A stretch of DNA of 44,352 nt, taken from Octopus sinensis. Its lineage: Eukaryota. The notes under the pieces are model-generated. The model did no database searches. It saw nothing but the letters and a program-made list of their open reading frames with translations, and was not told the origin of the DNA. Where the stretch lies: the NCBI RefSeq assembly GCF_006345805.1, contig NW_021835135.1, positions 1-44,352 on the forward strand. The letters run 5' to 3'. Within the stretch, counting starts at the first letter, position 1, and every line of letters begins with the position of its first letter. A program made the position numbers and the translations under genes. Shown in pieces: positions 15,458 to 43,537 of the stretch.

Positions 15458-15500
15458 CACTTCTGATGAGAACACGATTGGGTTCGAAAATTGTTTAAGA
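15458..15500 (+). ncRNA. Putative minimal type-I hammerhead ribozyme (C3-G8), degenerate
   Basis: ctt-CTGATGA(15463)-gaac acgattgg gttc-GAAA-a ttg t-TT-aag: perfect 4-bp stem II, 3-bp stem I, very short stem III. Confidence 0.5.
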
Positions 15501-15579
15501 CAGTTCATTTTCTCATTTTAAGGAGAATTATCTAAATTTGCACTGTTTATATAACTACCATATAACTACCGTATAGGTT

Positions 15580-15915
15580 ACATGCATACACACGCACACA
15601 CACTTACATACATATATAAACACACACACACACACACACACACATTCATACATACATACATACATACATACATACATGCATACATACATAAATACATACA
15701 TACATACATACATGCATACATGCATACATACATACATACATACATACATACATACATACATACATACATACATATATACATACATACATACATACATACA
15801 TAAATACATACATACATACATACATACATACATACATGCATACATGCATGCATACATACATACATACATACATACATACATACATACATACATACATACA
15901 TACATACATACATAA
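15580..15915. repeat. (CA)n/(ATAC)n microsatellite
   Basis: Direct inspection. Confidence 0.97.
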
Positions 15916-16470
15916 ATGATGGCTGCCCCCTCGTTATCGAGTATGGCCATTGCGCGAAGCTTAATCAATGTCGTTATCGTGCAATGCCTGTGCAAGAAGA
16001 CTTTTTTTAAGTGAGGAAAGGCTGTGCACTGAGTCAATCCTACTCACTAAGCAACAGCAGCCATAATCCGAAAAGAAAACAAGTCAACATCATCGGTAAC
16101 CACTGAGCCGCAGGTTTTATGTCGGAGTTATCCCAGTTACCTGAGTTACCATCTCCTAGAAGGATGCCCTGACAAAGGCCAGGAGTCCTTCACTCTCAAT
16201 GGTTTAACCGCGCGATCGGGTATTCAGTCCGATTATTTCTGTCTCCGCGCATGATACAGCCTTAAGACATTTATTGGATGGCCGTTGACTCTCAAGAGTT
16301 CCTCCGCCCTTTGACGGGTTTTGTTTTTCATCCCGCATGGTGTCCAATAAACACCCTCCTCTCCAAGCAAACTTGGTGGGGTTGCCGGTATAGTCGCCGA
16401 CGACCCGACCATGCAACAGGTTGTACTGGGTTACATGTTACCAGTAGCACTCGAAAGTGACCTGACATGA
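15916..16470 (-). mobile_element. Short non-autonomous retroelement (RTE-5'UTR-like) inserted in (ATAC)n
   Basis: ~550 bp of complex sequence flanked on both sides by (ATAC)n. The minus strand contains gggcatccttctaggagatggtaactc...aaacc, resembling RTE-clade 5' leaders (from recall). No meaningful ORF. Confidence 0.5.
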
Positions 16471-16572
16471 ACATACATACATACATATATACATACATAC
16501 ATACATACATACATACATACATACATACATACATACATACATACAAACATACATACATACATACATGCATGC
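16471..16572. repeat. (ATAC)n microsatellite
   Basis: Direct inspection. Confidence 0.97.
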
Positions 16573-16726
16573 ATCATGACCAACTTCGTGCAAGGATGAA
16601 GGAACGCTGGCTAGAAACTGCTCCTCTAAAGGAAACCTTACCTGCGATAGTGGTATTGTGACCACTTTTTTTTACTGAACGTTATTCACGACGAGAGAAT
16701 CCGTCATATATATATATAAATAGTAC

Positions 16727-16890
16727 GTGTGTGTGTGTGTGTGTGTGTGTGTGTGTGTGGTGTGTGTGTGTCTCTGTGTGTGTGTGTGTGTGTGTGTGTG
16801 TGTGGTGTGTGTGTGTGTGTGTGTGTGTGTCTGTGTGTCTGTGTGTCTGTGTGTCTGTGTGTCTGTGTGTGTGTGGTGTGAGTGTGTGTG
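16727..16890. repeat. (GT)n microsatellite
   Basis: Direct inspection. Confidence 0.97.
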
Positions 16891-16892
16891 AA

Positions 16893-17682
16893 CAGGGTGT
16901 TTTACAAAATTTTATATCATATTCTCGTTAAAACGACTTCAAATTTTACCAGAATGTGTAGAAACAGGTCAAAATTTTATGTTTAATGCTTGATATGTCT
17001 ATCTTTTCAGGTACAGAAATGGCATTGACTTGAAGAGAAAATACGTTTTCTGTGTTGGAGTATGCTCGAACACAATTGAACAAAACTGTGCAGCGTGCAT
17101 TTGTGAGAGAGTTCCCTAAAAAGTCACCAACGGCAATGCAGATTTGGACATGGCACAAAAAAATTCAAAGAGGAAGGCTGTCTGTGCAGAGCAAAAGTAT
17201 CTGGGGACCAGTAACAACGGAAGAGACGGTCGAGCGGGTTCGCCAAAGACTCTTGCGAAGCCCCAAGAAGTTCATAAAAAGAACAAGTTTGGAAACCCAT
17301 ATTCCTCCAGTTTGGCACGTCCGGATGAAATGTGCTGTTGAAATGGCCGTCACGTTCACTTGATCTGACACCTTGCAATTTTTTCTCTAGGGCTCCTGCA
17401 AACCTTGAGGAGCTCACGCAGAGAATCACTACCGCCCAAGACATGCTGCAGCGTGTTTGGGAGGAGATGGACAACCGTTTTGACGTGTGCCGTGACTCAG
17501 GCGGAGCGCATATTGAACATTTCTGAAGTCGTTCATGGAATCCACATACCTTTGAATTTCTCATTCAAATTTGGAGGAATTAATCTCACGTTGCCCAACA
17601 TTAATCCTGTTTACTTTCATTTGCTTTGTAGTTTCTGTGATATTTACATCTCAAATGATATCAAATTTTTTGAAACACCCTG
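16893..17682 (+). mobile_element. Internally deleted Tc1/mariner-superfamily transposon (DUF4817-type HTH transposase pseudogene)
   Basis: TIRs cagggtgttttacaaaattttatatcat / atgatatcaaattttttgaaacaccctg followed by TA. Fragments LEYARTQLNKTVQRAFVREFPKKSPTAMQIWTWHKK, WPSRSLDLTPCNFF (WPxxSPDL motif) and GGAHIEH; frameshifted. Confidence 0.9.
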
Positions 17683-17992
17683 TATATATATATATATATA
17701 TATATATATATATATATATATATATATATATATATATAAATTTGGTGTATGCAGTTGAACTAGCATTAAATTTTAACCTCTATGTATGTATCATACATAA
17801 CGTATATACACAGTTGACAAGCAAAATATTGCGGTTTTCGTCCTAGTTAAGAATCTGTTATGCACATCTTGTGTTAACAACACAATCTGTATTGGAGAGA
17901 GGCGAATTGTTCTGGCAGCGACTAGCGAGGACGCCAGATGGATCTTGACATCTTGGAGTATGTCTACCTCCCCAATATAAGGGAAGTCACAG

Positions 17993-40715: not shown

Positions 40716-40769
40716 TTTTATGGTTACTCTACTGTGGCCTTGTACATTTTTGGCACTACCTTTTTTTAT

Positions 40770-41852
40770 CGTAACTTTTTTTACTACTGAACCAAATTTT
40801 GATTATTTTAAGTCAAATTGTAGCTTACTACTGATCCATTATAGTGCAAAAAACCAAATTAAGATTGAGCTGAAACTGAATTAGTGGTAAAGCGTCAAAT
40901 TGGCCGCGTGTGAGTAAAAGTTGGAAACAACAAATTATAACATTTTTCTTTTCCTCACTTAAAGCTGCATAACTTTTTTCTATCTAATATCTTTAGATAT
41001 TAACAGAGTTTTTACCAAAAGATTGCACTCATCGAGTTCATTCTTTTAAAATGATATAATTAAAGTATAGTTTCATTTGAAATACCTTAGATATTTTAAG
41101 TCAAAGTTAATTTTAGGTGTTACTTTCCAAATTTTTGGCTACTTAGAGTTGCATAACTTTTTTTTCTATCAAATATCTTTTAAAGAAGTTTTCACCAAAA
41201 GATTCTACTTATTGAGTTCTTTTAAAAAATATAATTAATATATAGTTTGCTTTTCAAATAACTGAGGAATTACGAGTCAAAGTAAATATCGGGTTTTACT
41301 CCCCCATTTTTTGCGCTATGTTTCTTATCATAACGTTTTTACTGAACCAAGTGGAGGCGCAATGGCCCAGTGGTTAGGGCAGCGGACTCGCGGTCGTAGG
41401 ATCGCGGTTTCGATTCCCAGACCGGGCGTTGTGAGTGTTTATTGAGCGAAAGCACCTAAAGCTCCACGAGGCTCCGGCAGGGATGGTGGTGATCCCTGCT
41501 GTACTCTTTCACCACAACTTTCTCTCACTCTTACTTCCTGTTTCTGTTGTACCTGTATTTCAAAGGGCCGGCCTTGTCACTCTCTGTGTCACGCTGAATA
41601 TCCCCGAGAACTACGTTAAGGGTGCACGTGTCTGTGGAGTGCTCAGCCACTTACACGTTAATTTCACGAGCAGGCTGTTCCGTTGATCGGATCAACCGGA
41701 ACCCTCGTCGTCGTAACCGACGGAGTGCTTCCACCACTGAACCAAACTTCAATTATTTTATGTGAAAATGTAGCTTACCACTGGTTCATCAGTGGTTGAG
41801 CTAAAACTGAATTAGTTGTAAAGCGTAAAGTTGGCCGTGAGTGAGTAAAAGC
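40770..41852. repeat. Old composite repeat: ~150-bp direct repeats (40770-40920; 41330-41852, SINE-interrupted) enclosing two ~185-bp tandem units
   Basis: actgaaccaaa...tgtagctta...ttgagct(g/a)aaactgaattagt...gtgagtaaaag occurs twice; gcataacttttt...ccaaaagatt...agtcaaagt occurs twice. Confidence 0.7.
41351..41735 (+). mobile_element. Young full-length tRNA-derived SINE with 10-bp TSD
   Basis: A-box tggcccagtggttagg, B-box ggtttcgattccc; TSD actgaaccaa at 41341 and 41736. Confidence 0.95.
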
Positions 41853-42104
41853 TGACCTTAAGAATATGATTCACACACTCAAGAGTTCACCATTGTCTGA
41901 TTCTGGAACAGAGCTAATCTGTTTTCACACAATGACATCAACAAAAACAACAGAGAAAAATAGGAATGAAAAAAGAAGCAACAACAAGATGTAAGAAATA
42001 ATATCAAATTTTATTTGCCACAGAAAAGAGAGTAATTCTTTCGTGAATACTTGTTTAGAATTGTAAAGAAAACATTGGTCTATTTTGCACGTACGCATAC
42101 GTGA

Positions 42105-42900
42105 GAGTATAATATATGTGTATCACCTCTTATATATAATATATATGTGTGTGTGTGGGTGTGTGTGTGTATACCATAATATATTATGTGTGTGTGTGTG
42201 TGTGTGTGGTGTGTATACCTATATATATATATATATATATATATATACATATATATATATATACCTATATATATATATATACTATATATATATATATATA
42301 CCTATAATATATATATATACCTTATATATATATATATACCTATATATATATATATATATATACCTATATATATATATATAGCTATATAATATATATATAT
42401 ATACCTATAAATATATATATAATATACCTATATATATATATATATATACCTTATACTATATATATATATATACCTATAATATATATAGTATACCTATATA
42501 TATATTATATTACCTATATCATATATATATATATACCTATAAATATATATATATTATATATAGAGAGAGAGAGAGAGAGAGGCAGAGGGAGAAAGAGAGA
42601 GATTATATACATATATGGATTATATATACATATATACATCTACATATATAGATATATATATATATATATATATATATATATATATATATTATATATATAT
42701 ATATATTAGTGCATGTATGTGTGTATATATATATATATATATATATATATGACTGTATATATGTATATCTACAAATAACGAAAAATATTACTGCTGACGT
42801 GTATTTCCATGCGCGCAAGCGCACAGATTTGTGCGTATATATAAGAGCGTGTATGGATGCACGTATGTACGTATGTACATATATGTATGCATAATATTTG
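42105..42900. repeat. Compound (TG)n/(TA)n microsatellite with periodic 'cc' interruptions
   Basis: Direct inspection. Confidence 0.95.
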
Positions 42901-43019
42901 ATAGCAGATGTGGATGTGTGTGTATGTGCGCGTGCGTGCGCGTGGTTTTCACGCGATTACACGATGAGGTGCTAATTAAACAGCGTGCGATTGCAAATCC
43001 ATCTTAATTTCTCTAAATT

Positions 43020-43170
43020 TATTATCATCACCTTCATCATCATCATTATTATTATTGTTACCACTACAAGTATTACTATTGCTATTATTATTATTATTAT
43101 TATTATTGTTGTTATTGTTATTGTTATTGTTGTTGTTGTTGTTGTTGTTGTCGTCGTCGTCGTCGTTCTT
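43020..43170. repeat. Trinucleotide gradient (ATC/ATT/GTT/GTC)
   Basis: Direct inspection. Confidence 0.9.
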
Positions 43171-43460
43171 GCTGTTATTTATAACGACACCCCCCCCCCC
43201 ACAAACAGAAACTCGTCGCTCGGGGCACGTTAACCTACTTTCTCCTTAATCGTTTCCCATGCGCTTGAAATCTTATTCTTAATCTTTTCCTTCATCTGAT
43301 GAAACAAACCATGATTGTTTATCCATTTTGTCAACTCGCTGGCTTTCTCCGAGAAGCATTTACCGGCGATTTTACCAATATTTTTCCATATTCTGCAAAA
43401 ATAAAACAAAACGGGAAAAAAATAGAATGAAAAATTTCCGTTTATTTCACTCTTTAATTT

Positions 43461-43498
43461 CTTAAAATTTTCGTTGCGTCTTGCAACCTTTTCAACAC
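43461..43498 (-). ncRNA. Second U3-A8 hammerhead-like motif, with fold-back copy at 43515-43532
   Basis: Minus strand: TTGAAAA-g-gttgc aagac gcaac-GAAA-at-TT-taag; stem II identical to the 37.07 kb copy; stem I disrupted. Confidence 0.52.
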
Positions 43499-43537
43499 TT
43501 TTTCAAAAAAACTATTGAAAAGGTTGTAAGACATTGC

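What the first reader, a model, noticed from the sequence alone, without database searches (positions are those of the whole stretch)
15458..43532. Hammerhead motifs showing three alternative base pairs at core positions 3-8 in one locus
Seen: seven motifs share the layout stem I-NTGANNA-(extra purine in some)-stem II-GAAA-tiny, often palindromic stem III-TH-stem I. C3-G8 occurs at 15463, 29400 (-), 32667 and 33490 (-); U3-A8 at 37088 (-) and 43492 (-); G3-C8 at 39182. Established: C3-G8 is a tertiary Watson-Crick pair in the active HHR that tolerates compensatory swaps, and Penelope-like elements and metazoan retrozymes carry minimal type-I HHRs that can act as dimers. Inference: several non-coding, microsatellite-associated mobile families here use covariant cores that a CUGANGA search would miss, i.e. 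a large overlooked ribozyme-retroelement system in this lineage.
Basis: partly seen in the sequence, partly recalled or inferred. Interest (0 to 1): 0.88.

Follow-up and report, generated by a model that had tools for sequence, protein, structure and literature searches.

The report
Penelope retroelement hammerheads with altered cores
Seven hammerhead-shaped RNA motifs in this animal DNA are worn copies from six jumping-gene repeat families, two of them the tail ends of Penelope-type retrotransposons; they likely derive from slow self-cutting RNAs of a known kind, and two abundant families carry core changes (a swapped G3-C8 pair, a U at the normally fixed position 6) that I found no natural report of, with cutting untested.

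Summary
The seven motifs are real (4 strict hits in the window against 0.03 by chance) and belong to six repeat families. The 3-8 pair is fixed within each family and Watson-Crick in 9 of 9 multi-copy families (5 C-G, 3 U-A, 1 G-C); within families only single, uncompensated changes occur. The system is not new: these are minimal type I hammerheads of Penelope-like elements (PLEs). The U3-A8 and G3-C8 families are the 3' ends of RT/GIY-YIG elements, with inverted truncated copies, optional tails and (TA)n flanks. Natural U3-A8 is published. Family-wide G3-C8 (5,532 matches) and A6U were not found in the papers I could search; three key papers were not available. 43495 lacks stem I and 32667 has a C·A mismatch. 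Cleavage is untested. The scan noted G3-C8 and A6U before, on other DNA of this and other genomes. Verdict: new variant of a known kind; interest 0.42.

The parts
15459..15500 (+). Type I hammerhead motif, C3-G8, canonical core, no extra base after A9; position 17 at 15496; decayed copy of an old repeat family (element about 15395-15557)
   Evidence: (C-G in 27 of 27 copies)
29371..29410 (-). Minimal type I hammerhead motif, C3-G8 with A6->U and an extra A after A9; position 17 at 29377; element from about 29490 to 29276, ending in (TA)n; the most abundant family
32661..32706 (+). Type I hammerhead motif, C3-G8, C.A mismatch at 10.1/11.1, 8-nt palindromic stem III; position 17 at 32700; element about 32557-32875
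   Evidence: (C-G in 30 of 32)
32364..32550 (-). Inverted 5'-truncated partner of the 32667 element (3' part only, no hammerhead)
33442..33501 (-). Type I hammerhead motif, C3-G8, A10.1-U11.1, long stem II, 6-bp stem I; position 17 at 33448; element about 33618-33238
   Evidence: (C-G in 24 of 26)
33635..33718 (+). Inverted partial copy of the 33495 element, breaking off inside the core
37056..37096 (-). Minimal hammerhead motif, U3-A8, extra G; position 17 at 37061; element 37093-36963, the 3' end of a GIY-YIG/RT PLE family
   Evidence: (U-A in 33 of 37)
39175..39225 (+). Minimal hammerhead motif, G3-C8, extra G, 7-bp stem I; position 17 at 39218; element 39152-39303 with a short inverted 5' remnant; the 3' end of an RT/GIY-YIG PLE family
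   Evidence: (G-C in 42 of 43)
43462..43498 (-). Decayed U3-A8 motif of the same family as 37091, stem I lost; position 17 at 43465; element about 43516-43431
43515..43532 (+). Inverted partial partner of the 43495 copy (U3-A8 core and half of stem II)

Best explanation
The seven motifs are worn copies of minimal type I hammerheads from six repeat families, two of which are shown to be the 3' ends of Penelope-like retrotransposons and four of which likely are; in the source elements the motif is predicted to cut the element's RNA slowly, as a dimer or with help from the element's protein, and the 3-8 pair likely switched from C-G to U-A or G-C by compensated changes that kept this activity. 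Shown: family conservation, 3-8 pairing across families, position downstream of RT/GIY-YIG frames for the U3-A8 and G3-C8 families, inverted truncated copies, two alternative 3' ends about 55 nt apart, (TA)n flanks. Inferred: reverse transcription starts about 125-210 nt downstream of the core, usually stops early, and leaves short hammerhead-bearing ends, often with an inverted partner; selection acted on the few source elements, while the scattered copies, including those in the window, decay neutrally and are mostly inert. The A6U family is read as a slowed but still constrained variant. Cleavage is not shown for any of them.
For: Family majorities keep the pair: C-G 27/27, 38/43, 30/32, 24/26; U-A 33/37; G-C 42/43. 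All 9 families with >=2 copies under a descriptor blind to 3 and 8 are Watson-Crick: 5 C-G, 3 U-A, 1 G-C (1 in 504 by permutation, families not independent). U3-A8 family: lies in sense 390-1270 nt after a GIY-YIG frame in 17 of 30 loci fetched by that frame (the query locus included), and one of the 28 loci fetched by the hammerhead holds that frame (L035). G3-C8 family: GIY-YIG frame upstream in sense in 2 of 30 loci (L365, L381) and an RT stretch with YVDD directly upstream of L365, 49% identical to the U3-A8 family's RT. A second PLE family with an intact 780-aa RVT_1 + GIY-YIG frame has its own U3-A8 hammerhead in 8 of 30 GIY-YIG loci. Inverted partner within 900 nt in 18/28, 14/28, 9/29, 6/29 loci; (TA)5+ downstream in 27/29, 22/29, 17/29, 13/25, 12/28, 9/28 against 15% background. 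Tail present in 16/28 and 12/28. In an Anolis PLE, C3G or G8C alone abolish cleavage, the double mutant partly restores it, and cleavage needs the PLE protein (PMC11167929). A6U: position 7 takes all four bases and position 17 takes A, U, C but G in 0 of 25 copies, while the other core and stem positions hold one state apart from CpG decay.
Against: No cleavage data. The same paper found hammerhead cleavage unnecessary for insertion in vitro and no RNA-seq reads ending at the cut site. No within-family compensation: of the first 100 listed G3-C8-family matches 92 are G-C, 8 single changes, 0 double. The U3-A8 family majority has only 3 bp of stem I and the 32667 family a C.A mismatch at the base of stem II. 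No coding partner was found for the 15463, 29404, 32667 or 33495 families within 1.5-3 kb, and the 15463 and 29404 families show no inverted partners (0/25, 0/29). Pfam did not recognise the G3-C8 family's RT stretch and scored the U3-A8 family's domains below cut-off. 6 of 15 strict hits in the unbiased megabase are not Watson-Crick at 3-8. Minimum-energy folds of single window copies do not give the open hammerhead junction.
Confidence: 0.75

Rival explanations
1. The motifs descend from hammerheads but no longer cut; they are kept as a folded recognition site for the PLE protein near the start of reverse transcription, and the core changes (above all A6U) mark loss of catalysis.
For: Cleavage-dead mutants insert normally in vitro (PMC11167929). 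The A6U family is the most successful (16,350 exact matches; 12 copies against 4 of its A6 sister clade in 1 Mb). A6C cuts poorly with Mg2+ (PMC3088659; PMC7151607). Naiad PLEs proliferate without canonical hammerheads (PMC8557442). Weak stem I and the C.A mismatch in two families.
Against: The 3-8 pair forms in the active fold, and it is Watson-Crick in 9 of 9 families. In the A6U clade the free positions are exactly those a hammerhead leaves free (7; 17 but never G), across diverged subfamilies, and in one related organism only the hammerhead part is recovered (X15).
Confidence: 0.17
2. The families are independent non-coding retrozyme-type elements that replicate through small circular RNAs made by efficient self-cleavage and only borrow PLE enzymes.
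For: The 32667 and 33495 families show terminal redundancy at a fixed spacing (about 355 nt in 7 of 29 loci; mostly 450-480 nt in 9 of 29), as expected from more-than-unit copying of a short or circular template, and no coding partner was found for them. Animal retrozymes are proposed to be non-autonomous PLE derivatives (bioRxiv 10.64898/2026.07.22.740005).
Against: The two families that carry the 3-8 swaps continue upstream into RT/GIY-YIG frames and show no such redundancy (1/28, 0/28). No hammerhead-bearing tandem array in the window. It can hold for at most the C3-G8 families.
Confidence: 0.06
3. The matches are chance look-alikes in AT-rich repeats, amplified by transposition, and the 3-8 pairing is a selection effect of the reader's eye.
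For: A loose pattern is mostly noise (140 against 118); Rfam finds no hammerhead; copy number alone is not evidence of function.
Against: Strict descriptor blind to 3 and 8: 4 against 0.03 in the window, 15 against 2.1 per Mb; same layout at the same place in unrelated PLE families, matching the published consensus (PMC4209133 Fig. S3).
Confidence: 0.02

Closest known systems
[quoted passage not shown]
   Same: Type I layout, extra base after A9, G10.1-C11.1 in most, tiny palindromic stem III, short stem I, mostly solo truncated copies, pairs on opposite strands; U3-A8 families in S. mansoni; molluscan examples (Lottia, Crassostrea).
   Different: No G3-C8 or U6 row in the part of Fig. S3 read, whose printed consensus is CUGANGAH; no hit for Octopus in the searchable supplement.
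Anolis Poseidon PLE (PAc) hammerhead, Frangieh et al. 2024, PMC11167929 (read: passages and main text part 2 of 2)
   Same: PLE hammerhead upstream of two alternative RT start sites that define an optional tail; AT-rich targets; C3G/G8C partly active.
   Different: There G3-C8 is a laboratory mutant; here it is the natural state of a family with at least 5,532 matches. Tail here about 55 nt, there 30-40 nt cited for Penelope.
Natural core variants, Perreault et al. 2011, PMC3088659 (read: section 8 and passages) and Bcep176 A6C, Naghdi et al. 2020, PMC7151607 (passages)
   Same: Natural U3-A8 covariation; a natural change at position 6 with low Mg2+ activity that Mn2+ rescues.
   Different: A6C is a single phage example; here the change is to U and is fixed in a clade with more than 16,000 copies.
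Small dimer-cleaving hammerhead variants of PLEs, Lunse, Weinberg and Breaker 2017 (not held; seen only as cited in the review PMC6765202, section 11 part 2)
   Same: Short palindromic stem III, cleavage as dimers, PLE association.
   Different: Unknown: its alignments may already contain G3-C8 or U6 cores and cephalopod sequences.
Non-LTR retrozymes (bioRxiv 10.64898/2026.07.22.740005, part 1 of 5 read; PMC7229834, search listing only)
   Same: Non-coding type I hammerhead repeats related to PLE pLTRs; the 32667 and 33495 families show unit-length redundancy.
   Different: Retrozymes are defined by tandem units each with a hammerhead; the window's copies are solo or inverted, and two families are ends of coding PLEs.

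Membership tests
PLE minimal type I hammerhead | Core N3-U4-G5-A6-N7-N8-A9, GAAA, U16.1-H17 with 3-8 paired | tested here: met
   Met in five of six family majorities; see next row for the sixth
PLE minimal type I hammerhead | A at position 6 (29404 family) | tested here: not met
   U6 in 40 of 43 copies; 16,350 against 203 exact matches genome-wide. It works like, and descends from, an A6 hammerhead (sister clade) but departs from the defined core
PLE minimal type I hammerhead | Stem II closed by G10.1-C11.1 (or another pair) | tested here: inconclusive
   G-C in four families, A-U in 33495, C.A mismatch in 32667
PLE minimal type I hammerhead | Short self-complementary stem III allowing dimers | tested here: met
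   All six family majorities; two window copies have decayed
PLE minimal type I hammerhead | Stem I of about 4-6 bp | tested here: inconclusive
   6-7 bp in 39182, 33495, 32667 majorities; 3-4 bp in 15463, 29404; 3 bp in the U3-A8 family. Published examples go down to 2-3 bp
PLE minimal type I hammerhead | Site-specific self-cleavage (dimer or protein-assisted) | not testable with these tools
   Only assembled contigs were offered for reads
Endonuclease-containing PLE (U3-A8 and G3-C8 families) | RT followed by C-terminal GIY-YIG upstream of the hammerhead, same strand | tested here: met
   frames are broken, Pfam scores are below cut-off; nearest named homologue 52% identical, labelled RT-domain protein
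Endonuclease-containing PLE (four C3-G8 families) | Linked RT/GIY-YIG frame | tested here: inconclusive
Endonuclease-containing PLE | Variable 5' truncation, inverted partner copies, optional 3' tail, microsatellite targets | tested here: met
   inverted partners in four of six families, tails counted in two, (TA)n above background in all six
Nematis clade of PLEs | Phylogenetic placement of RT/EN with Nematis references; CX2-5CxxC linker | tested here: inconclusive
   Linker motif present; EN C-terminus resembles Nematis rows of PMC8557442 Fig. S2 by eye only; no tree with references was built
Non-LTR retrozyme | Tandem units each carrying a hammerhead | tested here: not met
   No such array in the window; only partial terminal redundancy in two families
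Non-LTR retrozyme | Abundant circular RNA | not testable with these tools
   No raw RNA reads available

The most novel reading that the evidence does not exclude
The genome's most abundant hammerhead, with U in place of the supposedly required A6, is a working ribozyme kept under selection: the PLE protein or a particular metal ion makes up for the lost contact, so that cutting is switched on only inside the transposition complex. Together with the natural G3-C8 family this would show that PLE hammerheads explore core sequences thought closed, and that pattern searches miss the larger part of them in this lineage.
Probability: 0.35. Interest if true: 0.65.

Novelty: new variant of a known kind. 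Interest (0 to 1): 0.42.

Why it matters
Whether PLE hammerheads need to cut at all is open: published work finds them slow, protein-assisted and dispensable for insertion in vitro. This genome offers a natural series (C3-G8, U3-A8, G3-C8, A6 and U6 sister clades) with thousands of copies each, so the question becomes directly testable: compensated 3-8 swaps argue for selection on the active fold, and the A6U clade is either a natural loss-of-function that spread or a working core outside the known rules. It also shows that CUGANGA-type searches and Rfam miss most hammerhead copies here. It is not a new system.

Tried and rejected
Rfam scan: no hammerhead family, only microsatellite-driven miRNA noise. 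Loose descriptor: too noisy to test covariation. Alternative register for 29404 as U3.G8 with A6: rejected, it leaves a 1-bp stem II and would make U4 the variable position. Within-family covariation: none, only single changes. A3-U8 families: none among multi-copy families in about 2 Mb held. Coding partners for the four C3-G8 families: not found; hits near A6U copies were neighbouring PLE fragments. Homology between the 32667 family and a U3-A8 family seen in L136: suggestive but weak (best E=0.003), not counted as a swap. Expression: no RNA holder on record was listed, and only contigs could be laid; this says nothing on transcription or cut sites. Single-copy folding gives alternative structures, expected for dimer-type hammerheads and not informative. 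No covariance model was built; no protein tree with reference PLEs was built. Papers not available: Lunse 2017, Przybilski and Hammann 2007, Hammann 2012, Martick and Scott 2006; the Terminon paper did not come up. 'Not found in print' rests on searches and supplement look-ups.
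Full report
Setting. The window is a whole 44,352-nt contig of G000, a 2.72-Gb genome. Bases 4-15075 are a 131-nt tandem array; the rest is microsatellite-rich repeat DNA. The nearest named homologue of a retroelement protein from this genome is an Octopus vulgaris protein at 52% identity, so the lineage is octopus-like; I go no further than that.

Observation. All seven motifs are present, with position 3 at 15463+, 29404-, 32667+, 33495-, 37091-, 39182+ and 43495-. 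A loose pattern with 3 and 8 free is not discriminating (140 hits in an unbiased 1-Mb sample of 100 stretches, 118 in shuffles). A strict one that also asks for a self-complementary stem III and 3 bp of stem I gives 4 hits in the window against 0.03 in 200 shuffles and 15 per Mb against 2.1. The three window motifs it misses are flawed or variant: 29404 has U at position 6, 32667 closes stem II with C.A, and 43495 has lost stem I. Rfam sees none of them.

Families. Searches of G000 with five window stretches for five families and one for the U3-A8 family (hits are the best 40 candidates, so biased towards the window copy) show six families; 37091 and 43495 are the same one. The 3-8 pair is fixed in each: C-G in 27 of 27, 38 of 43, 30 of 32 and 24 of 26 copies, U-A in 33 of 37, G-C in 42 of 43. 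An unbiased count agrees: a 20-nt pattern with 3 and 8 free has 5,532 exact matches, and of the first 100 listed 92 are G-C, 8 carry one change and none two. So there is no covariation inside families, as expected of dead copies. Between families there is: of 107 strict hits in about 2 Mb held, the 9 clusters with two or more copies are all Watson-Crick in majority (5 C-G, 3 U-A, 1 G-C); 15 singletons, 8 of them not Watson-Crick, were left out of this count. Permutation gives 1 in 504, an overstatement because families are related and three of the clusters were fetched on purpose. No A3-U8 family appeared. In contigs of four public runs from four coded organisms the G3-C8 family is present with no variant at 3 or 8 above 10%.

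What the elements are. Copies are 150-450 nt, with variable 5' ends and fixed 3' ends about 105-215 nt downstream of position 3. The G3-C8 and U3-A8 families have two 3' ends about 55 nt apart (tail in 16 of 28 and 12 of 28). Inverted partners lie within 900 nt in 18/28 (G3-C8), 14/28 (U3-A8), 9/29 and 6/29 loci, none for the 15463 and 29404 families; (TA)n follows in 32-93% of loci against 15% background. These are the marks of PLE insertions as described in PMC8557442 (passages) and PMC11167929. The link to coding elements is direct for the two swapped families. A GIY-YIG family search gave one locus with the U3-A8 element downstream; of 30 loci fetched with that frame, 17 have the element in sense 390-1270 nt after the stop. 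For G3-C8, 2 of 30 loci with longer 5' ends reach a GIY-YIG frame, and the DNA upstream of one holds a frameshifted RT with YVDD, 49% identical to the RT of the U3-A8 family. The two hammerheads are alike in layout (extra G, GC-rich stem II, A/U palindrome), so U-A and G-C are probably sister states; by eye the endonucleases resemble Nematis, untested by tree. A separate PLE family with an intact 780-aa RVT_1 plus GIY-YIG frame has its own U3-A8 hammerhead in 8 of 30 loci. Against: Pfam scores the two swapped families' domains below cut-off or not at all, and no coding partner was found for the four C3-G8 families. Two of these (32667, 33495) repeat their own 3' part upstream at about 355 and 475 nt spacing in 7 and 9 of 29 loci and may be non-autonomous, retrozyme-like units.

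The A6U family. A sister group keeps A6; in a midpoint-rooted tree of 170-nt contexts the U6 copies group together, with one A6 copy on a long branch among them (no support values read). Among 25 U6 copies not fetched with the window query, position 7 takes all four bases (8, 7, 5, 5) and position 17 takes A, U, C (14, 7, 4) but never G, while other core and stem positions hold one state apart from changes at CpG sites and the 5' flank varies freely. In four public runs position 6 shows no variant above 3% while position 7 does, and in one organism cover is almost confined to the hammerhead part (the likeness filter favours such a picture). Part of the 3' flank is conserved too, so this is a hint of selection on the hammerhead, not proof of catalysis. 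Published natural change at this position is A6C in one phage, slow in Mg2+ and rescued by Mn2+ (PMC3088659 section 8; PMC7151607 passages).

Mechanism. Shown: anatomy, linkage, fixation, between-family pairing. From the literature: the 3-8 pair tolerates compensated swaps; in a PLE hammerhead the G3-C8 double mutant is partly active and cleavage needs the element's protein, yet is not needed for insertion in vitro (PMC11167929); PLE hammerheads are slow and act as dimers (PMC4209133; review PMC6765202). Inferred: source elements use the motif to process tandem or read-through transcripts; reverse transcription begins downstream of it and mostly aborts, scattering short hammerhead-bearing ends; selection acts on sources only. 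I give this 0.75, a non-catalytic protein-recognition role 0.17, independent retrozymes 0.06, chance 0.02.

Known and new. The system and U3-A8 are published. I found no natural G3-C8 or A6U report in nine searches and three supplement look-ups (listed under Tried and rejected), but Lunse 2017, Przybilski 2007 and Hammann 2012 were not available, one supplement file of PMC4209133 could not be searched, and figures are not searchable, so novelty is provisional. Earlier notes of this scan report G3-C8 and A6U families on other DNA; I had reached both readings before looking and treat them as repeats, not support.

Verdict. Observation partly confirmed, interpretation partly supported: a known PLE hammerhead system with two core variants worth a bench test. 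New variant of a known kind; interest 0.42.

Noticed in passing
window 4-15075: Tandem array of about 115 copies of a 131-nt unit, 95% matches; the unit matches a dispersed SINE-like repeat that also lies at about 34147-34315 and 36500-36930.
   Followed up: no
window 38920-38976 and 39101-39157: A 55-nt inverted repeat flanking a 117-nt (TA)n tract directly upstream of the G3-C8 element; looks like the end of another PLE-type insertion.
   Followed up: no
window 39494-39655: Fragment of the 32667 family without the hammerhead, about 80% identical.
   Followed up: partly
window 18560-19153 (-), 23250-23642 (-), 17124-17564 (-): Open frames that look by eye like fragments of LINE-type RT C-termini and a DNA-transposase; Pfam gave no significant match, labels recalled.
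   Followed up: partly
window 37486-38510: Two nested copies of a repeat with an internal 101-nt tandem unit, ending in (TA)n; Helitron-like by recall only.
   Followed up: no
window 40240-40720 (-): Broken coding-like stretch that reads like an LTR-retrotransposon gag remnant by eye; not tested.
   Followed up: no
L108 (-) 6341, L133 (+) 663, L255, L378: The A6 sister clade of the A6U family includes copies with U4C (core CCGACGA), a further core variant shared by several copies.
   Followed up: partly
L310:2252-4594 (+): Intact 780-aa RT plus GIY-YIG frame of a young PLE family with a U3-A8 hammerhead about 860 nt after the GIY-YIG start; several 781-aa copies in G000. A candidate source of protein for assays.
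   Followed up: yes
L136 (-) 9394, L138 (+) 2542, L319 (-) 2746: Further well-formed U3-A8 hammerheads outside the window's families.
   Followed up: partly
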